This document shows positions 999 to 43,020 of a stretch of DNA of 64,000 nucleotides, in pieces. Location: assembly GCA_963693365.1 (NCBI GenBank), contig CAVNZM010000012.1, positions 5,220,889-5,284,888 of the forward strand, given 5' to 3'. The number at the start of each line of letters is the position of its first letter. The first letter of the stretch is position 1. Position numbers and translations under genes: made by a program. The notes under the pieces were generated by a model, which was given only the letters and a program-made list of their open reading frames with translations, made no database searches and was not told the DNA's origin. This stretch comes from Amoebidium appalachense (lineage: Eukaryota; Protista; Ichthyosporea).

Positions 999-1384
999 TT
1001 AGTACATGCCGCGGGGCATGTCTTGTGCCGTGCCGGCATTCGTCTTTGGCATGCCTAATAAGCGGAACAGCAGATACCCCACGATGGCAAGCACCAAAAT
1101 GACGGCGACGACCTTGAGCATGCCACCGAACGCACCAAACATGCCGGCAAGACCCTCGCTCGACTGTTCGGTAATCTTCTCCAGCTTTGCAGCCGACTCC
1201 TGGACCGCCTTGTCGTTCATGATGTTCTCCGACACGAGCTCGGCCAGCGCTTCGATGGTCTGTACCTGATTGATTTTCTTGATTTTCAGGTTTCTGTCGT
1301 CTTTGATCTCCATCTCCTGCTTCGCGTTCATCACGAGGGTGAGCGAGCTGTCAAACGCGCGTGTTGCATTGAAGGTGAAGTCGT
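999..1384 (-). pseudogene. C-terminal fragment of an NCLDV L1R/myristoylated-membrane-protein-like gene, 5' part lost
   Basis: GC3-biased frame ...LKIKKINQVQTIEALAELVSENIMNDKAVQESAAKLEKITEQSSEGLAGMFGAFGGMLKVVAVILVLAIVGYLLFRLLG...: INQ motif, helical segment, small-residue/Gly linker and C-terminal TM helix, as in large-DNA-virus lipid membrane proteins. Coding character stops abruptly at about 1384, where a repeated non-coding block begins. Confidence 0.55.
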
Positions 1385-1507
1385 GAACCCAAAACGAACA
1401 TCGCGCGAACCCCTGCCAATATCCGGTCAACCCGAACTCGTGTTTGGCGCAAATCTAGTGAACCCAAAACGAACATCGCGCGAACCCCTGCCAATATCCG
1501 GTCAACC
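1383..1507. repeat. 50-bp direct repeat x2 at the breakpoint of the membrane-protein gene
   Basis: GTGAACCCAAAACGAACATCGCGCGAACCCCTGCCAATATCCGGTCAACC occurs at 1383 and 1458. Confidence 0.9.
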
Positions 1508-1915: not shown

Positions 1916-2044
1916 AGCGCACGGTCATAGCGCTCATGACACATCTCTCCAAGAACACCTGTGCAAGCGCACGGTGATTGCGCTCATGACCCTACACTCA
2001 CACAACACAGGTGCAAGCATACGCATTGCCCCAACCCCCCCGCC

Positions 2045-2102
<58 letters not shown>

Positions 2103-2372
2103 AAAGCGCCCGGTGATAGCGCTCATGACACATCTCTCCAAGAACACATGTGCAAGCGCACGGTGATTGCGCTCATTAACCTACTCTCAAACAACACAGG
2201 TGCAAGCACACGGTGATAGCGCTCAAGCGCACTGTAATAGCGCTCATGACCCTACTCTCAAACAATACATGTGCAAGCGCACCGTGATAGCGCTCATGCC
2301 CCTACTCTCAAACAACACATGTGCAAGCCCACGGTGATAGCGCTCATGACCCTACTCTCAAACAACACATGT
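1916..2372 (+). repeat. Degenerate array of the 50-bp repeat (about 7 copies), inverted relative to the 5348-5914 array
   Basis: Unit GCAAGCGCACGGTGATAGCGCTCATGACCCTACTCTCAAACAACACAGGT, interrupted by a poly-C/(CA)n tract at about 2030-2103. Confidence 0.9.
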
Positions 2373-3022
2373 GCACACACAAAGGCATTCGGGAACACAC
2401 ATGCACACTTTGCATCCCCCCTCCCCCCCCCCCCCCCCCCACAATCCCCCTCCCCCACACACACACAAAGGCATTCGGGAACACACATGCACACTTTGCA
2501 TCCCCCCTCCCCCCCCCCCTCCCCCCCCCACAATCCCCCTCCCCCACACACACACAAAGGCATTCGGGAACACACATGCACACTTTGCATCCCCCCCCCT
2601 CCCCCCCCCCCCCCCCACAATCCCCCTCCCCCCACACACACACAAAGGCATTCGGGAACACACATGCACACTTTGCATCCCCCCTCCCCCCCCCCCCCCC
2701 CCCCAATCCCCCTCCCCCCACACACACACAAAGGCATTCGGGAACACACATGCACACTTTGCATCCCCCCCTCCCCCCCCCCCCCCCCCAATCCCCCTCC
2801 CCCCCCCCACACACAAAGGCATTCGGGCACACACATGCACACTTTGCATCCCCCCTCCCCCCCCCCCCCCCCAATCCCCCTCCCCCCACACACACACAAA
2901 GGCATTCGGGAACACACATGCACACTTTGCATCCCCCCTCCCCCCCCCCCCCCCACAATCCCCCTCCCCCCCCCACACACAAAGGCATTCGGGCACACAC
3001 ATGCACACTTTGCATCCCCCTC
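2373..3022. repeat. About 85-bp minisatellite with internal poly-C, 8 copies
   Basis: Unit CACACAAAGGCATTCGGGAACACACATGCACACTTTGCATCC(C)nAATCCCCCTCCCC. Confidence 0.92.
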
Positions 3023-3133
3023 CACCCCCTTCGTGAGAATGCACTGAGTGTCACATATTTATAATAAGTTGAATTTTATTGATTGTGAAAAAGCACGAAG
3101 TCGCCTACCCTGCTAGTAATATGGTGATACCGA

Positions 3134-4993
3134 TCAGTCAGGCCATTGATCGTAAAAGAGCACGAAGTCGCCTGGCCTGCTGGTAATATGGTGATACCGA
3201 TCACAGTCAGGCCAAAGTTCATCCCATGTGTTGGTTGCTGCTTCATAATACAACCAGTGGTCGTATGGTTCACCAACTACTTGCACATGGTGATTCCTGA
3301 TGGCATCCTCGAGGGCTATCTGACACGGCAGTTGCGGGTACCAATCCGCACCATCCAAAACCTCGGCGATAGGAACAGCACTCCACAGGGCATCCGCGCT
3401 GGGAGACGTGTCAGGCTGGCCCGTGGTCTTGTTAATACCGATATAGCTGCCGCGCTGTTGTTCCAAATGGTCGGAGGGGGTTTGTACCCAAAATAACTCG
3501 ATGTCTGCCTGCCAGGGGCAGACGCCGTCGGCATCGTTGAGCATGATTTGGTCAAATCCACTCGGGGGGTAGATGACGGCCGCTTGCCGGGTTTCGGTGT
3601 CGTAAGCATACAACCCGTCAACAACGAATGGCAAATCTCTACCTTGCCCCTCCGCTTTGGCTGTTTTGAACTCTTCGCGCTCAACATCTTTCCTGATTGT
3701 GTCAATTAAGTCTCCCCAATCGAAGGGAAGCACAATGACGTGTCGTTTGTTCATGACGTCCACAAGCATCTGCCACGACACGCCCACTTGCAGACGCCGC
3801 ATGTATGTGGAAATTTCGACGGTTTCGATGTCGGTATCGATCTGGCCCAGGGGAACAAACTCGCCTTCTTCCTGCCCTTCCTGAATCTCGTAAGCAAACC
3901 ACCCCGTGCACCGCCCGAATATGTTTTTGCGCTCGGCAGGCCCACCCTCGCTGTAATCCGCCTGGACCCTGCTAACTAAATTCGAAAGCTTTTTGTCCCA
4001 TTCCAGCTTGTGTCTAATGATGTTTGCGTAGTCGTACAGGTGGGCTTGGGTACGGGGTGCAGTTGTAACTGGCGGGTTTGAGGCAGCTTGTGCCAAAATA
4101 TTGGCCTTTTGGGTGGCCATATCTAGTATTATATTCGCATGGACATCGTCGTAGCCGTCGTTGTCGTGGTCCCTCCGGTGGGCATAATGGTCCATCAATC
4201 GCAGCAGCAAACACGTGTTAAACGACTCTAACGTATACGCAGAGCTGTCTAACTTGACAACTCCTGCAGACCCTCGCAACCACGCAGTGCACGGCGGGTA
4301 ATGCCGCAGTTTGCCGTCCCCCGTGTACCCCTCACTGGGGTGTGTCTCTACGATCCTTCTAATAGCATCCTCAGGAAGTAAACCCCACCAGTTCCAGAAC
4401 CTACTATCCTGAAAATCACTGTTATTCTCTATCGCGTATTGGACATCCGCCAAAGTGGAGGTTGCAAAAAACATATCGGCAAAGCTCTCGCTCGTTTTTT
4501 GGTCCAGTTCGGACATTTTTGCCGCAATCTCTGCTGCTGTGGCCTGCATCACCGTCCTAGTTGCAAGGCAACAGCGCCCTTCAGGGTTGTACACGGCCAG
4601 CTTGTCATAGCTTCGGAGGTACACCGCTGTGCATGCACGGAAACCTGCTTTCAACTCTTCCTGCAGTTGCAATAGACTCAACGAGGTGTCTACCTCAAAC
4701 ACAACAAAAGGGTGCAACGTTTCCACTAGAGTGACATCTTCGGGGGTTGAAACCGTGGCAAGGCCGTTGGTGTTTGCAAGAGAAAACACTACAACATCTT
4801 CCCCTACAGGGCCTAACAACAGCGGTGTCTTCGATGGAACGATCCGAACACGCACTGGCATTGAGGGTGCAAGTCCCATTGCTGACAGCGAAATAATAAT
4901 TCTGCCTATACCCTGCATGCCAAATCCTGTTGTGTTTTCGTGCAGCTGAGGTCGGTGTATTTGAAACGATTTGGATATAATAACATCAGTCAT
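3134..4993 (-). CDS. 619-aa intronless hypothetical protein (ORFan)
   Basis: Long, complex-sequence ORF from ATG to TGA with globular-protein composition. No recognisable domain. Confidence 0.8.
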   Translation of the reverse strand: MTDVIISKSFQIHRPQLHENTTGFGMQGIGRIIISLSAMGLAPSMPVRVRIVPSKTPLLLGPVGEDVVVFSLANTNGLATVSTPEDVTLVETLHPFVVFEVDTSLSLLQLQEELKAGFRACTAVYLRSYDKLAVYNPEGRCCLATRTVMQATAAEIAAKMSELDQKTSESFADMFFATSTLADVQYAIENNSDFQDSRFWNWWGLLPEDAIRRIVETHPSEGYTGDGKLRHYPPCTAWLRGSAGVVKLDSSAYTLESFNTCLLLRLMDHYAHRRDHDNDGYDDVHANIILDMATQKANILAQAASNPPVTTAPRTQAHLYDYANIIRHKLEWDKKLSNLVSRVQADYSEGGPAERKNIFGRCTGWFAYEIQEGQEEGEFVPLGQIDTDIETVEISTYMRRLQVGVSWQMLVDVMNKRHVIVLPFDWGDLIDTIRKDVEREEFKTAKAEGQGRDLPFVVDGLYAYDTETRQAAVIYPPSGFDQIMLNDADGVCPWQADIELFWVQTPSDHLEQQRGSYIGINKTTGQPDTSPSADALWSAVPIAEVLDGADWYPQLPCQIALEDAIRNHHVQVVGEPYDHWLYYEAATNTWDELWPDCDRYHHITSRPGDFVLFYDQWPD

Positions 4994-4994
4994 C

Positions 4995-5100
4995 GCGCTG
5001 ATTGGCTAAACGCGGATGACACATCTTTTAACGGATGATTGGTTGGATAAATCTAGTTACCATCGGCTAGCCGCGCTGATTGGCCAAATCCAATTGGTGT
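4995..5100 (-). promoter_or_regulatory. CCAAT-box cluster upstream of the 619-aa ORF
   Basis: Four ATTGG motifs (CCAAT on the minus strand) within 100 bp, two of them in the identical context CGCGCTGATTGGC. Confidence 0.4.
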
Positions 5101-5347
5101 TGCTTCGGCATAACCCGTGCGCAAGCCCGAAAATTCGGATTTGTTTCTTGGTATTTTTTGAAGTCCGGAATATTTTTGCCTGGGGTGTATGGTATTTTTC
5201 ATCCCCAGTTAAAGGGGGTGAAAGGGGGTTCCTATTTTAGCTTACCACGAAATTTGCAGGGGTTTACCATAAACTGAAAATATGATGGTATTTTTGAAAC
5301 GTTTAGGGTATTTTTTACCGTAAAAACGGGGTTATGGTCGGGCCTGC

Positions 5348-5914
5348 CCGTGCGCTTGCACCTGTGTTGCTTGAGAGTAGGGTCATGAGCGCTATCACCG
5401 TGCGCTTGCACCTGTGTTGCTTGAGAGTAGGGTCATGAGCGCTATCACCGTGCGCTTGCACCTGTGTTGTTGGCGAGTAGGGTCATGAGCGCTATCACCG
5501 TGCGCTTGCACCTGTGTTGCTTGAGAGTAGGGTCATGAGCGCTATCACCGTGCGCTTGCACCTGTGTTGCTTGAGAGTAGGGTCATGAGCGCTATCACCG
5601 TGCGCTTGCACCTGTGTTGTTGGCGAGTAGGGTCATGAGCGCTTCACCGTGCGCTTGCACCTGTGTTGCTTGAGAGTAGGGTCATGAGCGCTATCACCGT
5701 GCGCTTGCACCTGTGTTGTTGGCGAGTAGGGTCATGAGCGCTATCACCGTGCGCTTGCACCTGTGTTGTTGGCGAGTAGGGCCATGAGCGCTATCACCGT
5801 GCGCTTGCACCTGTGTTGTTGGCGAGTAGGGTCATGAGCGCTATCACCGTGCGCTTGCACCTGTGTTGTTGGCGAGTAGGGTCATGATCGCTATCACCAT
5901 ACCCTTGCTCATGA
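5348..5914 (-). repeat. Homogeneous 50-bp tandem array, 11 copies, with an imperfect palindromic core
   Basis: CCGTGCGCTTGCACCTGTGTTG(CTTGA/TTGGC)GAGTAGGGTCATGAGCGCTATCA with period 50 (TGCGCTTGCA at 5351, 5401, 5451...). Two interspersed variants. Confidence 0.95.
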
Positions 5915-7784: not shown

Positions 7785-7852
<68 letters not shown>

Positions 7853-7878
7853 GTGTTTGTTTGTTTGTTTTTTTTTTT

Positions 7879-7909
<31 letters not shown>

Positions 7910-10900
7910 GGAGGGGGGGGGAGGGGGGTTACCTTGAAAACGTGTTTCCTGTCAGTGTAGCCACACGTGCATGCCGGGGGGGGCTTCTTGCCAGCGACCA
8001 CAAGCCAGTTGACCGTGGCAAAATTTACCGCCTCGGCCAAGCTGCTACCAGTAGCATACCCAAAGTGGTATGCCCCAGGCAATGTGTAGATGACCTCGCC
8101 GGCCTGCTGAACCGTGTGCTGCACAGGAACACCCTTCTTCATCAAGTAACGGGGGTGGATGAACACAGACTGTCCCACCCACATGTTAGTCATATGAAAA
8201 ACTGGGTGGTCGTTTTTGTAAGTGCTTTTTTGTTTTTTGTTCTTCACGTCATTCACGTCAGTGTCTACCACTCCCTCTCTCTCTCTCTTCTTGTAGTCCT
8301 CTGTTGTGTGTGTGGTCGTTTTTTTTTTTTTTTTTTTTTTTGGGGGGGGGGGGGTGGTGAGGGATTACCTTATGCTGTGTGACTTTCTTGCAGATACCGG
8401 CCCCCGAAAGGCCAAGCCTCTTGTAGATATCCTCGAGGATAGACGTGACCTGTCCATTGTACTCTGCACTGATTATATACCAGCTTTTGTCTCCGGGCCC
8501 ACGGGTCATGATGTTGACACTTCCGAGCAGACCGTCTTCTGTGTGGGGCACAAACGGAGACCCCGTCGTGACACTGCAAGGAGGCATGTGATTGGGGTTA
8601 AAACAATAATTAGTTCCGACTTCGATGTGATCCAATACATTCCGAGAAGACCTGACCCATACACATACACCCAGGATGGTTCTGTGAACAAAAGGGGCAT
8701 TCTGCAAACCTGCCTTTTTTCCCTTTGTTGTTTGTTGTTGTGTTTTTTTTTTTTTGGGGGGGGGGGAAGGGGTGGGGGGGCATACTTATAGAGCATCGGT
8801 GTTGAGATGCCCTCACAGTTCTGGAACTCTCTCGATACAATCGAGCCCAGCGTCTCCAAGCTGAACATGTAGTCGATTTCTTCCCTCACTACCTGTACAC
8901 ACACCACATTGCATCAACACAACATACACTCTCCGCACAAACACACGCACACACCCATGCCTACACAACATGCACTCTCTGCTGCACAAACACACGCACA
9001 CACCCATGCCTACACAACATGCACCCTCTGCTGCACACACACGAATACACCCATGCCTATACAACATGCACCCTCTGCTGCACACACACGAATACACCCA
9101 TGCCTACACAACATGCACCCTCTGCTGCACACACACGAATACACCCATGCCTACACAACATGCACCCTCTGCTGCACACACACGAATACACCAATGCCTA
9201 TACAACATGCACCCTCTGCTGCACACACACGAATACACCCATGCCTACACAACATGCACCCTCTGCTGCACACACACGAATACACCCATGCCTACAGAAT
9301 ACACCCATGCCTTCACAACATGCACCCTCTGCTGCACACACACGAATACACCCATGCCTACAGAATACACCCATGCCTTCACAACATGCACCCTCTGCTG
9401 CACACACACGAATACACCCATGCCTACAGAATACACCCATGCCTTCACAACATGCACCCTCTGCTGCACACACACGAATACACCCATGCCTACACAACAT
9501 GCACCCTCTGCTGCACACACACGAATACACCCATGCCTACAGAATACACCCATGCCTTCACAACATGCACCCTCTGCTGCACACACACGAATACACCCAT
9601 GCCTACAGAATACACCCATGCCTTCACAACATGCACCCTCTGCTGCACACACACGAATACACCCATGCCTACACAACATGCACCCTCTGCTGCACACACA
9701 CGAATACACCCATGCCTACAGAATACACCCATGCCTTCACAACATGCACCCTCTGCTGCACACACACGAATACACCCATGCCTACACAACATGCACCCTC
9801 TGCTGCACACACACGAATACACCCATGCCTTCACAACATGCACCCTCTGCTGCACACACACGAATACACCCATGCCTACACTGTAACATGCACCCTCTGC
9901 TGCACACACACGAATACACCTATGCCTACACAACATGCACCCTCTGCTGCACACACACGAATACACCCATGCCTTCACAACATGCACCCTCTGCTGCACA
10001 CACACGAATACACCCATGCCTACACAACATGCACCCTCTGCTGCACACACACGAATACACCCATGCCTACACAACATGCACCCTCTGCTGCACACACACG
10101 AATACACCCATGCCTTCACAACATGCACCCTCTGCTGCACACACACGAATACACCCATGCCTACACAACATGCACCCTCTGCTGCACACACACGAATACA
10201 CCCATGCCTACACAACATGCACCCTCTGCTGCACACACACGAATACACCCATGCCTTCACAACATGCACCCTCTGCTGCACACACACGAATACACCCATG
10301 CCTTCACAACATGCACCCTCTGCTGCACACACACGAATACACCCATGCCTACACAACATGCACCCTCTGCTGCACACACACGAATACACCCATGCCTACA
10401 CAACATGCACCCTCAGCTGCACACACACGAATACACCCATGCCTACACAACATGCACCCTCTGCTGCACACACACGAATACACCCATGCCTTCACAACAT
10501 GCACCCTCTGCTGCACACACACGAATACACCCATGCCTTCACAACATGCACCCTCTGCTGCACACACACGAATACACCCATGCCTACACAACATGCACCC
10601 TCAGCTGCACACACACGAATACACCCATGCCTACACAACATGCACCCTCTGCACAAACACACGCACATACACACACATGACACACACGTACCTCACTGGG
10701 TGTATGGGTGTTTTTAAGAGGTGTCAGATCCGTTCCGTAAAAGAACATTTTACTGTAAGTTTCCGGTAAGCAGTCCAATTGCCCCCAGAACTCCTCCTCA
10801 TCCAACGGGTCCCCCTGCTCAATCGTGTTAGCTCCTGTTCACGGTAACCATACCCTAATGGTTGCAAATACGCACCTCTGGAATTTGCTCTTTGATGTCG

Positions 10901-12909: not shown

Positions 12910-13024
12910 GTTGCTGTGTGTGTTTTTGTGATGTGTGTAATTGTGAGCACCCTCTGCCTGTAAGACTGTCTGTGAGAGCGCTCTGTCTGTGTGCTTGTGC
13001 CACCGTGTTGTAGCGCTCGTGCTT

Positions 13025-13162
<138 letters not shown>

Positions 13163-13462
13163 AATCGTTCCTAGGAAAGCTCGTGCATGCGCGCGCTATG
13201 TTTTTTGTGTCCAGTCTAACAATGTTTGTGTTTAGCAGAACTCGTTTGTGTGTGTGCTCTGTTTTCGTATCCCAAACAATCTACGATTGTGTGCATAAGC
13301 CTAAAATGTGCCTCGCACAGGGAAACATGAAGGAAATTCTATGTATCTGTATTGGCTAAAAAAGGGGACAACTGATAGCGCGGTGTGCACAGGTTATTAT
13401 AACAAGTTTCTTTGTTGTTTTCGTTCTGTTTTTGGCAATCTAGCCTATTTGTAATTACAATG

Positions 13463-13730
13463 GAAACATGTACAACAGCAGCGCCGGGCGAAAGTGACAC
13501 GAACTGGTGTGGTGCGCTTGATTATGTTTGAAACATGCACAACAGCAGCGCTGGGCGAAAGTGACACGAACTGATGTGGTGCGCCTGATTACGTTTGAAA
13601 CATGCACAACAGCAGCGCTGGGCGAAAGTGACACGAATTGGTGTGGCGCGCTTGGTTATGTTTGAAACATGTACAACAGCAGCGCCGGGCGAAAGTAACA
13701 CGAACTGGTGTGGTGCGCTTGGTTATATTT
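13463..13730. repeat. 67-bp tandem repeat x4
   Basis: GAAACATG(C/T)ACAACAGCAGCGC(C/T)GGGCGAAAGTGACACGAACTGGTGTGGTGCGCTTG(A/G)TTATGTTT at 13463, 13530, 13597 and 13664. Confidence 0.92.
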
Positions 13731-15204
13731 GTTCGTTCGGGAATCAAGATGGACTCTTGTAATTTCTCCGTTGTATATAGAGCGCAAAGAGAGTGTTGAA
13801 CATATATTCTCATTTCGCAAAGCTTGAAGCAAGCAAGAAAATCACGTTTTTGATGACTGGCCAATTAATGTTTTGTTCAGTTTGGCCAATGGAATCACTG
13901 ATTGGCGCGTACGTGATAATAAGCTAATCAGTGAGATCGGCTAATAATAGTTTGGGTAGCAAGGCCAGCCTGCCCAACCAAGACCCTTTTGCGAGTAACA
14001 ATTGTGATTTATTCTAATAGGCAATAAATATTAAAAAAGCATAATTTATTTATGTTTATTTATACTTTACGCGGACACAGACATTTGCTTGGAATTTTGT
14101 TTGGAAAGGGTCCTGTGAATCTGGTCTTCGAAAAGCGTTGCAGCCTTGAGTCACGGTGTATTGACCAACTAGATTGTACCAATGCCGATAAGCGCTTGCC
14201 TAGAGTACCAGTGCCCGATCACGTTGACCCAACCATTATTCACCAATCACCGATTGGTTTTGTTGGCTGGCGCATTTACGTGATGACTGGCCAATGAAAT
14301 TACTTAGTGACTGATAGCAGCACCGACCCTGGAGCGTTTTGACTGAGCAAGGAATAAGGGAAATCCTAAAAGAGGGTTGTATGTTTTATGACATATAAGG
14401 TTCTATAAATAAACAACCATGCGCTTGGGATTTTGGTTGGAAAGCGTTTTGTATTTGCCCAATTTGAATCCGATGCTTCGATTTCGGTCAATCAGAATAC
14501 CCTGAGCATCAGCGCCGCGAATCACGTGGGGCAAGAACCAACCCCTATGCACCAATCAAACGCTTGCACGTAAAAAGGTCCGCGAATAAGATGTTGTGAA
14601 AGCGTATATCCTTCGATGTTTTAAACTAGCGCTCGTTTTGTCCTGTATATTATATTTTTATTTCGTATATTCACCTTTTTTATACAGTTTACCTGTGAAC
14701 CAAACACGATTAGAGATATATTCGCTAACAGCGCCAAAAGGTTCTGTTTTTCTTATGCTTGATTCTCGTAACATAAGATCGTATTTTGCGCAATGGTTTC
14801 ACATAAATTATTGATGACGGTTTTTTTATATCAGTTCACAGCGCTGTCATTTTCTACTTTTCTGATTCTTTTGTTCATGGCTGTGTTTGCACACGACGGT
14901 GTTTGCCTAGAGAAACGTAACACTCTCTTTTTTTTTTCTTTTTCTCTTGTTCACGACTGGGTTTGCACAGGACTGTGTTTGCGCAGAGAAACGTAACACT
15001 CTTTTTTTTACTTTTTCCTTTGTTCACAACAGAGAATCGTATTTGTAGCACTTTCTTTTTTTTTTCCTTTTTCCCTTGTTTTTTTTTTTCCTTTTTCCCT
15101 TGTTCACGACTGGGTTTGCACACGACTGTGTTTGCGCAGAGAAACGTAAGACTTCCTTTCTTTTTTTCCCTTTGTTTATCCTTTTTTTTGTGAAAACTGT
15201 CACG

Positions 15205-16463
15205 ATGGATTATTCCCAGCAAGCTCCCGGGTCGGGGTCATACGAAACCAACATCAGCAAGTCCGCCGACCCCGTCACAACGCAAGCCCCCCCCCCCCAT
15301 CCAACCCCCCCCCCCACACTCCGGCGGCGAAGTCCCCTCCCCAACCAACCCCCCCCACACTCAGGCTCCGGCGGCGACGTCCCCCCCCCCCATCCAACCC
15401 CCCCCCCCCACACTCCGGCGACACTGCTCCCGTCGATCCAAAAATGTTCGAAGAGTACTTGGAGACTGTGTTGCAGTCGAAAGTAGACAGTGCCATTGCC
15501 TCTGCATTGGCAAAGGTCGGTACTGCGGCCACTGCACCCGCTGTCACCACCCCAACCACCGAATTGCAGGAGAAGCTGGAAGCCGCAGAGAAAGAATTAC
15601 AAACGAAGGATCACGACATCCAAATCCTTAAGGGGGAAATTGCCGAGCTAAAATCGGCGGCGGCCAAACAAAAACACTTTGCAGATGCAAAGGAACAGGT
15701 GTTATCGGCAAAGAATCGGGACCTCGAAGGGCAGCTTGTTGGAAAGGTGGCCGATATCCTGGAGCATCAGGCTGAAGGGGAAAGATACCGGGCCGAGATT
15801 ACCAAGCTTCAGTCACACATTGCGACCATGAGGGAATCATACCGTAGAACAATCGACGAGAGCACACAGAAACTTCGTGGGTGGAATGACCCCCAGCCCC
15901 TCCCCGACATTACCGTCCAACACGGTCTCGCCCCCCCCCTCCCCCCCCCTGGTACGACCAATCAAAATCCCACCCCCACCCTCCCCCCGCCCGGTACCAC
16001 TCAGCCCAAAACCCCCCTCAACCTCCCCCTGCCCATTCTCGCCCTCCCCCCACCCGGTTTAGCCTCTGTCATGCCCGTACCCCCCTTCAATCCGTCCCTC
16101 ACCACCGTTACCAGCACTCCTGCACCTTTTTCCCAATCCCGCACTTTTGGTGCCTCCATGATGTCGAACCCCTCTGCATATTCCCAGGGTTCAAAGAGAG
16201 GAGTGTCAGATATTTCTTTCGGTGTGTACAAACGGCACCGCCAGGAAGAGACGGCATTTGAGATGGCAATAGATGAGGAATTGGAGGACATGATGGGTAT
16301 GGGCGAGAAGGTCGAGGGGAAGAAAGGGAAAGAAAGTGGTCGAGCAAAGAAACCAAAACCGAGTCAGAAACCAGCCCCTGCCCGCAGTGGCAGGACACGA
16401 GCAAAGCAAGTTTCAGATATACATGTTATTCACGGGGACAGTGATGAAGACGAACAAGATTAG
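15205..16463 (+). CDS. Coiled-coil / Pro-rich / basic-acidic-tail hypothetical protein
   Basis: ORF 15444-16463 has a heptad-rich segment (ELQEKLEAAEKELQTKDHDIQILKGEIAELK...), a Pro-rich linker and a K/R-rich tail. The likely true start MDYSQQ at 15205 is out of frame across poly-C runs (homopolymer error or real frameshift). Confidence 0.7.
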
Positions 16464-16807
16464 GTTGGGAGTGGTGAGGGGTGTGTTTTGATTTTGTTGT
16501 ATGTGTCAGGGGCTGGGTATGGCCACAGGGGCTGGCTGATGTATTTTAATATATGACTGTTGATACTGGTAGCACCTTACGGTTTCTGTATTTATGTTAA
16601 CGAGCATCTTATGGATCATAGCATGTAGGCATCTTTTTTTTCTGGTTCTGGATGGTTTAGTATCTTGTGGTTATTATATGTGTACAAGTCTTCTGGATGG
16701 TTTAGTATCTTGTGGTTATTATATATGTACAAGTCTTGTTTTGCTGTTTTCAACCGATTAAATATCGATTGTATACAAAGAAGTCCAGGTCCCTTTTGGT
16801 ACACACT

Positions 16808-16834
16808 TGCATGCACGTTCAAAGTCTCCCCCCC

Positions 16835-16865
<31 letters not shown>

Positions 16866-17086
16866 ACACTCCCTCCCCATGCATGCATGCCCGTGTGGCA
16901 CACAGTTTGTGTGCTTTCATAAGTCTATGCACGTTCAAAGTCTCCCCCCCCCCCCCCCCCACCCCCCCCCCCCCCCCCCCCACCCCACACTCCCTCCCCA
17001 TGCATGCATGCCCGTGTGGCACACAGTTTGTGTGCTTTCATAAGTCTATGCACGTTCAAAGTCTCCCCCCCCCCCCCCCCCCCCCC

Positions 17087-17117
<31 letters not shown>

Positions 17118-17303
17118 ACCCCACACTCCCTCCCCATGCATGCATGCCCGTGTGGCACACAGTTTGTGTGCTTTCATAAGTCTATTGCATGCACGTTCAA
17201 AGTCTCCCCCCCCCCCACCCCACACTCCCTCCCCATGCATGCATGCCCGTGTGGCACACAGTTTGTGTGCTTTCATAAGTCTATTGCATGCACGTTCAAA
17301 GTC

Positions 17304-17339
<36 letters not shown>

Positions 17340-17406
17340 ACACACACACACTCCCTCCCCATGAATGCATGCCCGTGTGGCACACAGTCTATGCACGTTC
17401 AAAGTC

Positions 17407-17440
<34 letters not shown>

Positions 17441-17626
17441 ACACACTCCCTCCCCATGCATGCATGCCGGTGTGGCACACAGTCTATGCACGTTCAAAGT
17501 CTCCCCCCCCCCCCCCCCCCCACCCCCCCCCTCCCCCCCCCCACACACTCCCTCCCCATGCATGCATGCCCGTGTGGCACACAGTTTGTGTGCTTTCATA
17601 AGTCTATTGCATGCACGTTCAAAGTC

Positions 17627-17682
<56 letters not shown>

Positions 17683-17795
17683 CCCCCCCCCCCCCCCCCC
17701 CCCCACCCCACACTCCCTCCCCATGCATGCATGCCCGTGTGGCACACAGTTTGTGTGCTTTCATAAGTCTATCGATGTATATTGCATGCACGTTT
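16808..17795. repeat. 90-170-bp minisatellite with a variable poly-C core, 8 copies
   Basis: Unit ATGCACGTTCAAAGTCT(C)nACACTCCCTCCCCATGCATGCATGCCCGTGTGGCACACAGTTTGTGTGCTTTCATAAGTCT. Confidence 0.92.
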
Positions 17796-17958
17796 AAAGT
17801 ATTTATTTCCCCTCTTTTTGCACACACAGCTTTGCACACACAGCAACTGTCTTTTTTTTGTATCCACTTTGGGTATGAAGCGCTGGCGCTGGGTTTGTCG
17901 TATACTCCACTTCGGGTCTTTTTGTATGCAGCGCTGGCGCGGTGACACGTCAATCGGA

Positions 17959-18330
17959 TTAAAAGTCCGAGTGACTTGTTTGTCTCAGAGTGGTGTCGTA
18001 CTCCGCAGCACCCGTCTTCTTATTGAAATAGTATATGACTGCATACATCAATGGTGTAACCAATAAACATGTGAGGACAATAGCAGCGCTGACGTACACC
18101 AGATACATTTTGTTCACTTTCTCTCTAGCATTCGGTTCGGACTTCATTAAATTGTACCAGTGTATATTTGCAACGACACTGCATATAGATATCACATAAA
18201 GAATGCCTGTGGTGACCGTGCTGTCGAACATGTACGTGTACCTCACAAAACTTTCAGTATCCGACGTGTTACACCCCAAAAGTGACCTCTCTGAGATCTT
18301 GCCTGTGGTACAAACTCTTGATGCCGTGTT
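17959..18330 (-). CDS. Putative small two-TM membrane protein (start not defined)
   Basis: Open frame with hydrophobic segments VTTGILYVISICSVVANI and MYLVYVSAAIVLTCLLVTPLMYAVIYYF. Confidence 0.5.
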   Translation of the reverse strand, partial: NTASRVCTTGKISERSLLGCNTSDTESFVRYTYMFDSTVTTGILYVISICSVVANIHWYNLMKSEPNAREKVNKMYLVYVSAAIVLTCLLVTPLMYAVIYYFNKKTGAAEYDTTLRQTSHSDF

Positions 18331-18536
18331 GCTCTTGTGTTTTACCAGTACCCCTCTCTCCAGATGCCGAATTTATATTGGAATTCGTGAATACACCCAT
18401 GTGATTTGGTCAGTGGTTTGGCACCAAGAGATTGATTGATATGCCATCAACCAGTCAACAAAAAGTACTCGCTTTTACTTTTTGTCTCACTTCACCCCAA
18501 TCCAAGAACAGTGCACACCAAAACAAAACACTAGAA

Positions 18537-19019
18537 ATGGGAGACGCACTTTTGCGCCCCGATTCGGTTGACCCCGAACGATGCCCTGCATTTGCACCCT
18601 CAAAAAAAGCCCAGTGCAAAAACAAAAAGAAAACATGCCCATACCACAAGGACGGCTTCAAGCCCTGGGTATGCTTTGCCCCTGCCACCGGTGTCCTCCT
18701 CTACAGCGACAACACCATCAACATCCTCCACACCCACAAGGCCGGGGACTATGCTCATGCAAACCTCCTGTTGGACGACCTCATGGCCGTGTTTACAGTC
18801 GCAGAAATGCAGCGCCCTCGCACCGAGCGCACCGGGGTACCCGCGCTGACTGTGTCCACTCCGGATCCACCCATGGGTGCACCACAGCCACCGGTTGCAG
18901 CTGCAGCGGTGGGTGTGGGCAGGGAAAATGGGTACTGCCAGGGCAAAACCAAGGCTGGCAATCCCTGCAAAAACAGGGTGAAATCTACGACCCATTGCCA
19001 TAAGCACAAGCCCAAATAA
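18537..19019 (+). CDS. 160-aa protein with two C3H zinc-finger motifs of the type common in giant viruses (DUF5763-like)
   Basis: N-terminal CPAFAPSKKAQCKNKKKTCPYH and C-terminal CQGKTKAGNPCKNRVKSTTHCHKH. Intronless, with an A-rich leader before the ATG at 18537. Confidence 0.75.
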   Translation: MGDALLRPDSVDPERCPAFAPSKKAQCKNKKKTCPYHKDGFKPWVCFAPATGVLLYSDNTINILHTHKAGDYAHANLLLDDLMAVFTVAEMQRPRTERTGVPALTVSTPDPPMGAPQPPVAAAAVGVGRENGYCQGKTKAGNPCKNRVKSTTHCHKHKPK

Positions 19020-19679
19020 AAAAACCACCCACACACCCACACGTGCCAACATACACTATCCTCCCCGTGAGTGGCATGCCAGTCTCCCCAGCCCCCCTGC
19101 CCCCCAGCCCCCCTGCCCCCCAGCCCCCCTGCCCCCCTGCTCCCCTGCCCCCCTGCTCCCCTGCCATATGCACACCCACACACTGGGTGCCTCCCCTGCT
19201 CCCCTGCCTGCCGGAACCAGGCCCCCCAGTGGTGGCATTCCAACACGTGCATGCTAGAAGATCGTGCTACATGAACAAATGGTCTTAACTCAGCCATACA
19301 TGGGGGATAGATAGTATCACACAACCATGGTTCCCCCACTCTCCCCAGCCTCCTGTGCACGTGTGCCTCCCCCGACCCCCTGCCTCCCCTGCACGTGTGC
19401 CCCCCCTCCTGCCGGAACCACGGCCCCCAGTGGTGGCAGCCAGTGCCTTACATGCTAATCTATTCTATGGCCACATGACCAGATGGCCAGATTGTTTTGA
19501 CTTCAGGTGGATCCCCCCCCCCCCTGCTCACAGACTGAATTTGATCTGGCCATCTGGCCATCTGGGTATAAACCGTTTTCTGTTCTAATATTGGAGAACT
19601 GTCGATAGTGATAGAAAATGTCATTGGAAGAACAATCGGGAAATCCCGCGGTGTGACAACCAATCAGAATGAAGCAATA

Positions 19680-20069
19680 TTGGGATATTCGGGTTGGTTG
19701 TAAGGTTTTCCGGGTCGAGCCGAAGGCCCTAACGGGCCGCAGGCCCGCCTATTGGGCCGCCAGGCCCTAGGCCGCCAGGCCTGGGGCCCCGGGGACCGGG
19801 GCGCCCGACCCGGCCCGCGAGCCACCCCCGGCCCGGCCCGGCCCGGCCCGCGGGGCCCGGCGCCGGGGTTAGCAGCTGCTGCTAACCCCGGCGCCGGGCC
19901 CCGCGGGCCGGGCCGGGCCGGGGGTGGCTCGCGGGCCGGGTCGGGCGCCCCGGTCCCCGGGGCCCCAGGCCTGGCGGCCTAGGGCCTGGCGGCCCAATAG
20001 GCGGGCCTGCGGCCCGTTAGGGCCTTCGGCCCGACCCGGAAAACCTTACAACCAACCCGAATATCCCAA
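19680..20069. repeat. 390-bp GC-rich near-perfect palindrome (hairpin/cruciform)
   Basis: Arms are 19680-19876 and 19878-20069, centre TTAGCAGC-T-GCTGCTAA (1-nt loop at 19877). I see one mismatch and one extra GGCCC unit in the left arm. Confidence 0.97.
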
Positions 20070-20239
20070 ATCTTGAGCCAAAACGATTTGATGATTGGTC
20101 AATGTCAGAGTCTCGATTCAATCGTCATCTGATGAAAAAGGTTCTTTAATGAAAAAGAAAAAAAACACATATATCCTAATAAAACTTTTTGTAATCGGGC
20201 GTCGCTAACAAACAAATATTACCGCTCGATAAAGCAAAG

Positions 20240-20980
20240 AAATAGCTTTCATTTACTATAGGGTCAAAGGGGTTTCGATTGCTGCGATGGGTCGGAAATT
20301 TATCCAGTTTATTTCTCCCTCTCGCCGAGGTTTACCTCTTCCCTTTGGTCGGCTACTTCAGGCGTTATTTGACCGCACCCATGGGGCTGCCGTTGTGAAT
20401 GGGGTACTGAGTAACGGATTCAATCATACTCGAGGCCTTTTACAGGGCTCACTTTTGAGTCCCCTTCTCTTTGATGTCTTTATTGACGACTTAGCGGTAA
20501 AAATTCAACAATTTCCAGCTGCCGGCGACTCTTGTGTTTCCGGCCTTTTTTTCGCTGATGATATTGTCTTAGTCACTCACAGTCCTTCTATCATGAATAA
20601 CATGCTTTCTCGAGTAGATGACTGCAGTCAGTTTCCGAAATTTCATGAAAATTGGGATTATCATAGATAAATGCCGCACCTTTTCTTCCAATGCACAGTC
20701 AACAGTACACTCTGAACAATCAACTTATCCCAATCGTGTCCTCCTATGACTATTTAGGTATTCCTTTCACCTCTAAGGGTATCTGGTTTGAGCGCCTTTT
20801 GACTTCGCGCATTTCTCGTGCGCGTGGTCGCTTACATATCTATCAAGGAATATTCACAAATATCTCTAATATTCATTCTGCCAATTTGCTCACTCTTTAT
20901 AAAGTTTTTCTTCGTCCATGTTTCGAATATGGCCTCCCGTTACTCTTGTGTGCCCCTCCACGGCAACTTGAACCTGGCAC
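20240..20980 (+). mobile_element. Degenerate non-LTR retrotransposon reverse transcriptase (5' piece)
   Basis: Frameshifted KGFD motif, RGLLQGSLLSPLLFDVFIDDL, LFFADDIV, YDYLGIPF and LYKVFLRPCFEYG. Stops and frameshifts are present. Confidence 0.92.
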
Positions 20981-23232
20981 GTACTGACGGTGCCTGGGCT
21001 GCTTTGAACTTCACGTTCGCCTCACACCCAGGCACGTTGGCTTTTATGATCACTTAAGCAAACGTACCGTGAAACAGCCAATCAAAACGTTGTACAACAG
21101 ATCGGCCAATCAGCGTGTTGTATCACTGTTTAGGGTATGCGGTTCGGCGCGTGCGTCTTGACCCCACCTTGAGGCAACTTTTAAAAAGATTTAAAAGCCA
21201 ATCGTTGGATAGGTACGAAGCGAAGCAAAATCCGAAATATTGCATGATATTGAGGCAATCCAGATAGGGCATCACGTCAGCCGTTTGCGGTCAAATTCAA
21301 ACCTTGGTCAACAGCCGCGACCGTTATCATCCCATGTCTAGTTGTACATGTCGCAAGGCTTTTAAGCGCCGGCACTTCTCGTGCACAGTTTTTGAAACTT
21401 TGTGTGATGTACTGCGCTCGTTTCAATCCGCGTGGTCTACAGTTGCAATATTTTGTATTTTGTCTATAGAACATTTACTAGTAGCTAGGTTGTAGCAGCA
21501 TACTGCGTGCATTGTCTGCTTAATAATCTTTCTTTCATCCCTGCCGCACAGGTACCCTAATTAGTTAAGCCTAGAGTGCATTCATACTCTTTTTCTGCTT
21601 TTCAAAGTTTCTATGTTTATTTAGTATTATGTCAGCCTCCATACACCACAAAGATATCCCTAGTGTGCAACTTGAAAATGGCACTGATTCGCTGTCACAG
21701 TCGGAATCAAGGCTATTCTTTCAGGACTCGGATGATCACCTTGATCCTCTTTATTAATAAACGAGCTTAAGTTTGGCTTACGACACAGGCAATCGCGCGA
21801 TTTCTCTTGGGTCCAAACCTGTTTGCGGGGGATTTAGGGGGGTCGAAGTGTAGTCATGGCAGTGGCAGGCCCCCACTGTTGTGAACCCCCGTCGTCAAAG
21901 GGCCTGGTGCTGAGGCCCCTTGGAGTGGCTGCCCTGGGCCTGGTGTTGAGGCCCTTTGGAGTGGCTGCCCGTAGTGTTGTTGAGTAGTGTTGTGGTGCCC
22001 AGTGCAGCAGTAGGCCTTAGACACACCGCTGGGTAGGGCACGGTTGGGGCGGAGGCATTCCCAAACCACCGGGACCTACGTAGTAGGAGTCTTTGTCGGG
22101 TAGAGGAATGGCCAGCAAGAGAGTCTGGAGGTGTACGTCACATGAGTCTGGAGGTGTTCGTCACGGCATGTTTGGTTGTGTTAGGAATTCTTTGGGGATG
22201 GGGCATGCTGAGTGTGGTTGTATGGATGGTGTCTGTTATCATGTCTGTTGCTATGTTCCACTCGATATAACATTGTGCCAGGGGCATGGGGTTTTGGGTG
22301 CAGATTGTGGACGGGGGCAGAGGTGCATCTACAGGGCAACGTCAGTGGCGGTTCATAATTATCCTTGTTTTGGGGTTGGGTTGGGTATTAACCATGGTGG
22401 GGTGGTGTGTGGATGTATGTATATGTTTTATGTTATATGTTAAATGTTGCTTCCTGCATGGGTAGCGGTAGTTGTAGTCGCTCAGCACATAACTTTATTT
22501 TGTTTTTAGGTAGTTTTTACTGAGGTGGAACTCAGTTATTTTCTGTGCGAGGGGGGAGTTGTCATGTGCTGAGCTGATTCGTATTAGTTTACTTCTATAT
22601 TTTGTGTTTTGGTGAGTTAATTTCGGGGGTTTTCTTGCATAGTGATGCCGGGGTCTAAATGGGGTATGAGGAGATTAATCAGTGGTATGGGGAGAATCTG
22701 ATGCAGCGGCGGCTGATTGTTTGGTGCGCGCGTGCATGCCCCATGCCTCTGCGTACTCTCCATGTTAAATGTTGTATTGCTTCTTGCTGTGTGCGTGGCG
22801 AGACCCATGTTGCCTGCTCGCGTGTGTGTATGCTTATATGTATTGTGAGTAAACGTGTGTACGTGTTGTAGTGCTGTAGGGGTGTCTGAGGTCGCGGTAG
22901 CCAATGGTGTGGAGTGCGTGTAGTCTGTGGGGGAGGGAGTGTTGTGATTGGCTGAATGTCACTGTGGTATTTGTCTGGCCAGTGGGCCGCGTGTCTGTGA
23001 AGTGTCTCGCGGGGTCGCGGGCTTTTGGAAGTTCTTCTCAGAACACAAAAAACTCGCTTCCCACCCAACTCAAAGAAAAGTTTATACGTATACACGGTTT
23101 CGAGCCCCTTTAAGCGTGCAGATAGTTAGAGTAGTTCATATACACACTGTATGTTGCCACGACACCAGGAACCAATAGATGAGGGGCTTTGCTTTCCGAC
23201 CAATCACAGAACTTGATGATGAAAATTTCCTG

Positions 23233-23348
23233 GGTGACTCTATTTTCCCTTACACTCTCGCGACCGCGTGCATGCTTTCTCTCGCGGCGGCTCTACGGTC
23301 CCGAGAGTCCAGTGTTCGCTGTGTGTGTAAGGAAAAATACGAGTCACC
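23233..23348. mobile_element. 116-bp element with about 23-bp imperfect terminal inverted repeats (MITE-like or transposon subterminal hairpin)
   Basis: GGTGACTC-TATTTTCCCTTACAC ... GTGTAAGGAAAAATACGAGTCACC. Confidence 0.55.
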
Positions 23349-23387
23349 TCATTAGGTGACAGCACGGCAACAGCGCGCGACTCTTAG

Positions 23388-27136: not shown

Positions 27137-42247
<15,111 letters not shown>

Positions 42248-42622: not shown

Positions 42623-43020
42623 ACCCCCTCCCCCCCAGTCCCCCACAGGACCTCGCCCCTCATTAATATGTCCCTCCCATCCACACACCCATTTTATCAA
42701 CTCGATTTTTAGTTGGCATAGTTTGTTCTTTTACCGATATTCCCTGTGGGTGGTCACAGGTGAATATCGAAATAGACCGGCTAGCACACACTACAAAATG
42801 TCAAAGAAGGAAGGTTTGTAGTCTCCCGTAGGGCATTTTTCTGCACGTGACTCACGACACACAACCCCGGGGTATACATCATTACGGTCCTTTGTGATAT
42901 TCGACCGTGTGAACTGTTTTTTTTTTCCTTTCCCGCTTTCCAAATCCCATTTCCATATTGATTACATGATTGTATGACCTCGTGCCTGTGAACAGGATTC
43001 GTGTCATTTTGCCCCCCCCC

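What the first reader, a model, noticed from the sequence alone, without database searches (positions are those of the whole stretch)
19680..20069. 390-bp GC-rich palindrome at the virus/host boundary: possible unfolded hairpin telomere
Seen: arms of about 195 bp, a 1-nt loop, one mismatch and one 5-bp bulge. The core is extremely GC- and CpG-rich and built from GGCCC units. It sits where virus-like genes end and LINE debris begins. Known: poxviruses, asfarviruses and parvoviruses have hairpin ends with extrahelical bases, and nicking such an end off-centre and unfolding it gives a terminal palindrome. Spacerless palindromes are normally unstable in chromosomes. Inference: this is the preserved terminus of a linear hairpin-ended virus joined to host DNA, which would reveal its genome-end structure and integration route. 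Alternative: a spacerless foldback element with TG...CA ends (19681-20068) and an imperfect 5-bp duplication AATAT/AATCT.
Basis: partly seen in the sequence, partly recalled or inferred. Interest (0 to 1): 0.82.

Follow-up and report, generated by a model that had tools for sequence, protein, structure and literature searches.

The report
Folded-back end of a protist transposon
This 390-base DNA palindrome sits exactly at the end of a repeated mobile element in a protist closely related to Amoebidium; it likely arose when the element's end folded back on itself and was joined into a LINE by the element's own, still unidentified, cutting enzyme, and a regular virus hairpin telomere remains possible but less likely.

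Summary
The palindrome is real: arms of 197 and 192 nt, 1-nt loop, one mismatch, one 5-nt bulge. It is not a lone insertion. There is no target duplication, and other copies of the LINE run on with their own sequence at 20070. Short-read contigs show that the left flank belongs to a family of roughly 30-60 near-identical copies. Its last ~650 nt have twice the interior's depth in 2 of 4 runs. By arithmetic on one run, about 57% of these ends continue TA+arm and 43% stop at 19677. Arms also join other flanks exactly at the arm end. Flank end and arm start are 22-bp imperfect inverted repeats (16/22; 1 of 49,237 positions) abutted across TA, and TA is missing at the host junctions seen, as a transposase or integrase cut would leave it. 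The main arm form in run X9 runs past this centre unmirrored, so the spacerless centre looks derived. No transposase, integrase, recombinase or viral hallmark gene was found. Best reading: fold-back end of a DNA-transposon-like element (0.45). Regular hairpin telomere of a virus-like element: 0.27.

The parts
19680..19876 (+). left (inner) arm, here called A; GC-rich, with GGCCC tract 19827-19848 carrying the extra unit
19877..19877 (.). centre; lies in a CAG-N3-CTG mini-hairpin (19873-19881); the main arm form in X9 has a CAG-N3-CTG motif at the same place and then goes on unmirrored
   Evidence: X9 record 23, loose end before 19899
19878..20069 (-). right (distal) arm A', ending in CAA exactly at the LINE junction
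   Evidence: X1 record 4; LINE paralogues with loose ends before 20070
19656..19701 (.). abutted-end junction: 22-bp imperfect inverted repeats 19656-19677 and 19680-19701 (16 of 22) around TA 19678-19679; core CAATATTG 19675-19682 is a perfect palindrome
19026..19677 (+). long terminal repeat B of the multi-copy element (left limit uncertain, 19026-19206); depth twice the interior in X1 and X4; ends in CAA at 19677
17958..19035 (+). interior of the multi-copy element (near-identical main form in 4 of 4 runs laid; it continues left of 17958, extent unknown)
18441..19019 (+). ORF of 192 aa with two Cys/His knuckle-like motifs; no homologue found; this copy is frameshifted near 18.4 kb against the main family form
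20070..20967 (+). LINE fragment cut at 20070 (target of the insertion); resumes near 23372 after another insertion

Best explanation
The palindrome is the outer end of one copy of a multi-copy, likely DNA-transposon-type element: its GC-rich terminal arm was likely copied back on itself at a 3-bp mini-hairpin, and the copied end was likely cut after CAA and joined into a LINE by the element's own transposase or integrase. Shown: the palindrome; both outer junctions fall on family termini; B end and arm start are 22-bp imperfect inverted repeats abutted across TA. Derived by arithmetic from depth tables: about half of B ends carry TA+arm, the rest stop at 19677. Inferred: one enzyme binds the 22-bp motif and cuts CAA^TATTG on each strand with a 2-nt stagger, so TA is lost at host junctions, as with DDE enzymes. 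Also inferred: the usual copy is B'-interior-B-TA-A-spacer-A' (two long-TIR modules moving as one composite) or a head-to-tail tandem, and this copy lost the spacer by fold-back or template switching. The left end of this copy and the enzyme gene are not in the window.
For: Arm ends meet three flanks of known sequence at the same base: B+TA, the LINE, and a 554-nt flank in X10 record 9; X1 record 2 adds a 708-nt flank whose letters were not shown. LINE paralogues (7 contigs in X1, 6 in X4) continue left of 20070 with one shared sequence, so the join is clean. B ends also meet other DNA: X5 record 27 leaves the window at 19677 for 759 nt; in X9 unlisted contigs of summed depth 255.5 stop at 19677 against 342.5 going on TA+arm. 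B/interior depth 1.96-1.97 (X1) and 2.00-2.04 (X4). End motif 16/22, the only such position among 49,237 tested with a 2-nt spacer. X9 record 23 (depth 111) reads B-TA-arm and then leaves the window's sequence 22 nt before the centre, with no mirror in the 30 of 50 loose letters shown. Both window arms share a 9-nt inner segment that this main form lacks, so one arm was likely copied from the other. B is CpG-poor (o/e 0.30), as expected of a long-resident host repeat.
Against: No transposase or integrase among 149 ORFs scanned in 1-28.5 kb. A target duplication cannot be tested because the other end is absent. The orientation of the second B copy is unknown. The doubling is not seen in X5 (7.45 + 3.22 against 8.44) or X11, and the tool warns that contig depth is not copy number. 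The 57/43 split rests on one run and on contigs not listed in the table. X9 shows no short contigs at the arm's outer end such as it shows at the B end. The unmirrored X9 continuation could be a longer hairpin stem (20 of 50 loose letters hidden). X1 cover at the centre may be up to about 47 (several copies), which would fit a palindromic subfamily.
Confidence: 0.45

Rival explanations
1. Regular hairpin telomere of a linear virus-like element (Polinton-like virus, virophage, or the giant-virus remnant to the left) with B as inverted terminal repeat. An integrase would nick the two-fold symmetric CAA^TATTG site at the hairpin base on either strand: one cut drops the hairpin (B|host), the other unfolds it (B-TA-A-A'|host, as here).
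For: One symmetric site would explain the 57/43 split, the doubled B, the precise CAA ends and the loss of TA with no second event. X1 has cover reaching the centre. Atlas neighbours of the adjacent ORF are mostly Nucleocytoviricota clusters, at 0.79. An L1R/F9L-like lead (0.90) and a multi-exon JmjC gene lie to the left, as described for Amoebidium giant-virus insertions (PMC11244446, sections 7-8). Palindromes at TIR ends next to target duplications are reported for endogenous virophages and PLVs (10.64898/2026.07.28.741278, section 7).
Against: The main arm form in X9 does not mirror at this centre. No capsid, ATPase, polymerase, Rep, resolvase or integrase hit in 149 ORFs; no match in viral or metagenome contigs. 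The 6 kb left of B is gene-poor and full of tandem repeats. B is CpG-depleted. Published Amoebidium giant-virus insertions are described as highly divergent from each other, unlike this homogeneous family.
Confidence: 0.27
2. Tyrosine-recombinase retrotransposon with split direct repeats (A1-ORFs-B1-A2-B2, Ngaro/PAT type). B-TA-A is the internal circle-junction template; the palindrome comes from a later inversion between A1 and A2 or from a folded-back cDNA.
For: Predicts interior:B:B|A:B|host = 1:2:1:1, as measured. The structure is described in PMC4157794, PMC8547959 and PMC6681497. An alternative predecessor of B is seen at 19026 in X5.
Against: Tyrosine recombination is conservative, yet TA is kept at neither kind of host junction seen. 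No RT, RNase H or recombinase left of the palindrome. It needs a second rearrangement, and the mirror-image second palindrome that an inversion predicts is not in the window.
Confidence: 0.11
3. Independent spacerless foldback element (MITE) inserted here by itself, with later loss of one flank.
For: The outer 55-70 nt of the arm are up to three times as deep as B in X4, so free arm-type elements probably exist; arms meet unrelated flanks.
Against: No target duplication; left flank is not LINE. The B-TA-arm join is multi-copy (depth 342.5 in X9, where the LINE flank has no cover) and falls 2 nt from the B terminus.
Confidence: 0.07
4. Assembly or long-read fold-back artefact.
For: No listed contig spans the whole palindrome; the two contigs over the right junction reach only 28 and 13 nt into the arm, under the tool's 31-nt rule; A19718 is seen in no contig.
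Against: The right junction matches without differences in X1 and in X5, a different sample code; the mirror stops exactly at a family terminus; the arms differ by a mismatch and a repeat unit; X1 cover reaches the centre.
Confidence: 0.03

Closest known systems
Long-TIR DNA transposons (MULE/Foldback type) and composite elements; abutted-end junctions of IS3/IS30/IS256-type circles (recalled, no call)
   Same: Long terminal repeats, a short shared terminal motif, precise ends, two ends abutted across a 2-bp spacer that is absent from host junctions, internally deleted palindromic derivatives.
   Different: No transposase found; target duplication untested; an abutted-end junction at about half of all ends of a eukaryotic family is not something I found described.
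Palindrome-flanked endogenous virophages and PLVs of Halocafeteria seosinensis (10.64898/2026.07.28.741278; passages and section 7 read)
   Same: Palindrome at the outer edge of a long terminal repeat of an integrated multi-copy element in a protist; hairpin priming proposed there.
   Different: There 52 nt in subtype 5, present in all complete elements of a subtype, next to target duplications and with capsid and integrase genes; here 390 nt, 78% GC, arms on about 57% of ends, no viral gene found.
Ngaro/PAT/VIPER split-direct-repeat and DIRS1 retrotransposons (PMC4157794, PMC8547959, PMC6681497, PMC3266345, PMC7192593; passages)
   Same: An internal copy of the end-to-end junction; same expected ratios of junction types.
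   Different: Their junction bases are kept on integration (3-bp NTT core in DIRS1); here TA is lost. No RT or recombinase found.
Retroviral 2-LTR circle junction cut by integrase (PMC1905944; abstract only)
   Same: A short palindromic junction between two element ends that a DDE enzyme can cut.
   Different: Joins here fall after CAA, not CA; no LTR-retroelement genes.
Amoebidium giant-virus insertions, adintoviruses and Plavaka giant repeats (PMC11244446; sections 7-8, passages, supplement legends)
   Same: Same host genus; multi-exon JmjC and an L1R-like lead occur to the left.
   Different: No palindromic or hairpin termini are mentioned in that paper's main text; whether this family is one of its three classes is not settled.

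Membership tests
Poxvirus/asfarvirus-type hairpin telomere | terminal palindrome with a few unpaired bases | tested here: met
Poxvirus/asfarvirus-type hairpin telomere | AT-rich hairpin (feature recalled) | tested here: not met
   78% GC
Poxvirus/asfarvirus-type hairpin telomere | flip and flop isomers of the centre | not testable with these tools
   contigs are masked or absent at the centre; no genome held
Poxvirus/asfarvirus-type hairpin telomere | same hairpin on every terminal repeat | tested here: not met
   about 57% of B ends carry the arm and the main arm form passes this centre; one run, by arithmetic
Palindrome-flanked virophage/PLV | long terminal repeat present twice per element, inverted | tested here: inconclusive
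   depth ratio 2.0 in 2 of 4 runs; orientation unknown
Palindrome-flanked virophage/PLV | capsid, packaging ATPase, integrase or replication genes | tested here: not met
   none in 149 ORFs of 1-28.5 kb; this copy may be truncated
Palindrome-flanked virophage/PLV | target-site duplication beside the palindrome | not testable with these tools
   other end not in the window
Free foldback element / MITE | both flanks from one target, with a duplication | tested here: not met
Split-direct-repeat YR retrotransposon | A1...B1-A2-B2 in direct orientation | tested here: inconclusive
   ratios fit; A1 and B2 not in the window
Split-direct-repeat YR retrotransposon | RT, RNase H and tyrosine recombinase genes | tested here: not met
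   (only the LINE RT on the right)
Split-direct-repeat YR retrotransposon | junction bases kept at one host junction | tested here: not met
   TA absent after B (X9 by arithmetic, X5 record 27) and after the arm (LINE, X10)
TIR DNA transposon (DDE), simple or composite | related inverted motifs at precise termini | tested here: met
   16/22, 1 of 49,237 positions; precise ends
TIR DNA transposon (DDE), simple or composite | target-site duplication around whole copies | not testable with these tools
   no whole copy available
TIR DNA transposon (DDE), simple or composite | transposase gene in the family | tested here: inconclusive
   none in this copy; rest of the genome not held

The most novel reading that the evidence does not exclude
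A family of linear, hairpin-ended virus-like elements in Amoebidium integrates by nicking a two-fold symmetric site at the base of its terminal hairpin on either strand. About half of the integrated ends would then lose the hairpin and half preserve it unfolded as a ~400-bp GC-rich palindrome, giving a readable record of both genome-end structure and integration chemistry.
Probability: 0.25. Interest if true: 0.8.

Novelty: new variant of a known kind. Interest (0 to 1): 0.5.

Why it matters
Under the best reading it defines the ends and likely cut site (22-bp motif, CAA^TATTG) of an apparently undescribed, recently expanded element family in a close unicellular relative of animals, in which about half of all ends are fixed end-to-end junctions. 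Under the hairpin reading it would show how hairpin-ended DNA viruses, which have no free ends, enter chromosomes, an open point for endogenous giant viruses and Polinton-like viruses. One pass over a long-read assembly decides between them.

Tried and rejected
No genome is held for the window, so other copies could not be read directly. Arm or centre patterns: 0 matches in viral contigs and 0 in metagenome contigs. Related-locus searches in viral contigs with two ORFs confirmed 0 of 37 and 0 of 1 candidates. Homologue searches: none for 18441-19016, 3137-4993 or 15207-16460. Single-sequence folds were unusable (pLDDT 34 and 35), so no fold search was run. Rfam on 13000-22000: one chance-level match, no ribozyme. 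No RNA holder was listed. In X11 cover falls from 744 to under 7 right after 19035 with an adapter at the contig end; this looks like the 3' end of a transcript, but the library kind is not on record, so I draw nothing from it. Lack of cover over the arms in X5, X10 and X11 is not used as evidence. The X1/X4 loose end at 20055 was first counted as a host flank and then dropped: by eye it resembles arm 19721-19734, suggesting a tandem of the outer ~55 nt. A tRNA-primer-site look-alike in the X9 loose end was set aside, since it would put both precise junctions inside an LTR element. The X1 joint 19791 to 19944 (depth 5, 28 nt on the short side) may be a second, centre-deleted palindrome or a library artefact and was not counted. 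Replitrons (PMC10288648, passages) have short direct terminal repeats and do not fit. The inner continuation of the main arm form and the upstream half of the LINE were not found in the window (0 matches; one 3-mismatch match at 42787, outside any LINE context that I saw, not followed). Earlier scan findings: none.

Full report
Observation. The palindrome is as described. The left arm is 19680-19876 and the right arm 19878-20069, around T19877, with one mismatch (19718/20031) and one extra GGCCC unit on the left. It folds at z = -40 against 100 shuffles, while one arm alone is unremarkable (z = -0.16). There is no other arm in the window. The host is a protist close to Amoebidium: the AP2-domain protein at 37777-38736 is 95% identical to a EukProt protein of Amoebidium parasiticum. 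No genome is held, so evidence on other copies comes from short-read contigs of six coded runs laid in two calls (X1, X4, X5, X11; X1, X4, X9, X10). X1 and X9 are one sample, which may be the window's own source; contig depth is only a rough guide to copy number.

Right flank. It is a LINE fragment (RVT_1, E 7e-9). Seven contigs in X1 and six in X4 match from 20070 on and continue leftwards with one shared sequence unlike the arm, so the LINE is cut cleanly at 20069/20070. The junction itself is matched without differences by X1 record 4 (20042-20150) and X5 record 28 (20057-20189), though only 28 and 13 nt lie in the arm, under the tool's 31-nt rule. X4 shows no contig with the window's base at 20107. 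The left flank is not LINE, and the upstream half of the LINE was not found in the window, so AATAT/AATCT is not a target duplication.

Left flank. 17958-19035 assembles as long, near-identical contigs at depth 582 (X1) and 1323-1336 (X4), against medians of 10 and 22 for 8 and 7 low-copy contigs: about 60 copies, or 30 if those contigs are single alleles. At 19603-19615 depth is 1139-1148 and 2679-2695, a ratio of 2.0 in both runs. X5 gives at most 1.3 and X11 has almost no cover there, so the doubling holds in 2 of 4 runs. I call this last ~650 nt B.

Junction types. In X9, 13 records were laid and 7 are listed. The listed ones account for all depth except 255.5, which starts at 19648-19650 and stops at 19677; 342.5 goes on through TA into the arm. 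So about 57% of B ends carry the arm and 43% turn to other DNA at 19678. This is arithmetic on one run, but X5 record 27 also leaves the window at 19677 for 759 nt, and the left-arm bin is 0.43 and 0.62 of the B bin in X1 and X4. Arm ends in turn meet other flanks at exactly 20069: X10 record 9 (554 nt) and X1 record 2 (708 nt, depth 10.7, letters not shown). Both B and the arm are therefore termini, ending in CAA. The TA between them is absent at the host junctions seen.

The junction is symmetric. The first 22 nt of the arm match the reverse complement of the last 22 nt of B at 16 positions; this is the only one of 49,237 non-low-complexity positions in the window to reach 16 with a 2-nt spacer (binomial P about 1e-5). 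The core CAATATTG is a perfect palindrome. This is the anatomy of two element ends abutted and read by one enzyme that cuts after CAA on each strand (inference; abutted ends of IS30-type elements are recalled, and cutting of a palindromic end-to-end junction by a DDE integrase is in the abstract of PMC1905944).

The centre. The main arm form in X9 (record 23, depth 111) departs from the window 22 nt before the centre, lacks a 9-nt segment that both window arms share, and after the common TTAGCAG goes on unmirrored in the 30 of 50 loose letters shown. It has a CAG-N3-CTG mini-hairpin where the window folds. X1 has cover in the centre bins (10 and 101), which must reach at least the centre, at a depth between 10 and about 47; X4, X9 and X10 have none. 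The spacerless centre is thus real in at least one data set, but looks like a minority form made by copying one arm back on itself.

Genes. Of 151 ORFs of 55 aa or more in 1-28.5 kb, 149 were scanned: 2 had Pfam hits (the LINE RT and a short PGM1_C match). The other two are JmjC exons. 28.5-64 kb was sampled only with two ORFs. No transposase, integrase, recombinase, Rep, capsid or polymerase was found. The ORF next to B has no homologue and only weak virus-leaning Atlas neighbours (0.79). An L1R/F9L-like lead at 1002-1340 (0.90) and the multi-exon JmjC gene suggest a giant-virus remnant at the left, as described for this genus (PMC11244446, sections 7-8).

Mechanism. Three architectures give the measured 1:2:1:1 ratios. 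(a) A transposon-like element with B inverted at both ends and a second long-TIR module A-spacer-A' fixed 2 bp outside one end, or a head-to-tail tandem; this copy lost the spacer by fold-back and its A' end was joined to the LINE. It uses only known processes and fits the unmirrored main form and the excess of outer-arm depth in X4. (b) A hairpin-ended linear element nicked on either strand of the symmetric site. It explains the split and the palindrome at once and has a precedent in virophages and PLVs (10.64898/2026.07.28.741278), but needs a longer hairpin in the main form and lacks viral genes. (c) A split-direct-repeat retrotransposon, which fits the ratios but not the loss of TA, and needs a second rearrangement. 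I put these at 0.45, 0.27 and 0.11; a free MITE at 0.07 and an artefact at 0.03.

Literature seen. PMC11244446: abstract, passages, sections 7-8 and supplement passages (figures not visible; Fig. S4 may show the ends of its repeat classes); its main text has 0 occurrences of 'hairpin', 'palindrom' and 'inverted repeat'. 10.64898/2026.07.28.741278: passages and section 7, supplements not seen. PMC8547959: passages and section 11. PMC4157794, PMC6681497, PMC3266345, PMC7192593, PMC10288648, PMC13236599: passages. PMC1905944: abstract. Searches listed no description of this family or of palindromic ends in Amoebidium; the library lacks most subscription papers, and I did not query Repbase or Dfam.

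Verdict. A real feature and an element terminus, with a newly defined end motif and junction; a new variant of a known kind. It is not shown to be a virus telomere, but that reading stays open at about one in four and is cheap to test. Interest 0.5.

Noticed in passing
window 20968-23362: A 2.4-kb insertion in the same LINE, flanked by a perfect 9-bp duplication (20959-20967 and 23363-23371); an X5 contig runs from 20967 into sequence like the resumed LINE. No clear terminal inverted repeat.
   Followed up: partly
window 1916-5907: A 619-aa ORF (3134-4993, minus) with no homologue lies between inverted arrays of a 50-bp tandem repeat (about 1916-2387 and 5345-5907); it looks like a separate mobile element.
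   Followed up: partly
window 1002-1454 (-): ORF resembling the C-terminal part of L1R/F9L-type membrane proteins of Nucleocytoviricota (Atlas 0.90 and 0.89; PF02442 on 13-19% of cluster members); its 5' side is replaced by a short tandem duplication.
   Followed up: partly
window 7852-8913 (-), probably further to about 13 kb: Multi-exon JmjC gene (PF02373, E 3e-12) beside a 1.75-kb array of a 47-bp unit (8917-10672); resembles the intron-bearing KDM4-like genes reported in Amoebidium giant-virus insertions.
   Followed up: partly
window about 29-64 kb: Three copies of a 10-13-kb segment at 97-99% identity in sampled 300-nt blocks, each with an AP2-domain gene.
   Followed up: no
window 19680-19735: The outer 55-70 nt of the arm are far deeper than the rest in X4 (about 20,000 against 700-2,800), and a variant in X1 and X4 seems to repeat this unit in tandem. 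GC bias may contribute.
   Followed up: partly
window 15207-16463 (+): Intronless 418-aa ORF, coiled-coil then proline-rich, with no hit among 1.84 billion representatives; may or may not belong to the element.
   Followed up: partly
window 19026-19677 against 19680-20069: CpG observed/expected is 0.30 in B but 0.82-0.83 in the arms, suggesting different histories or constraint on the arm.
   Followed up: no
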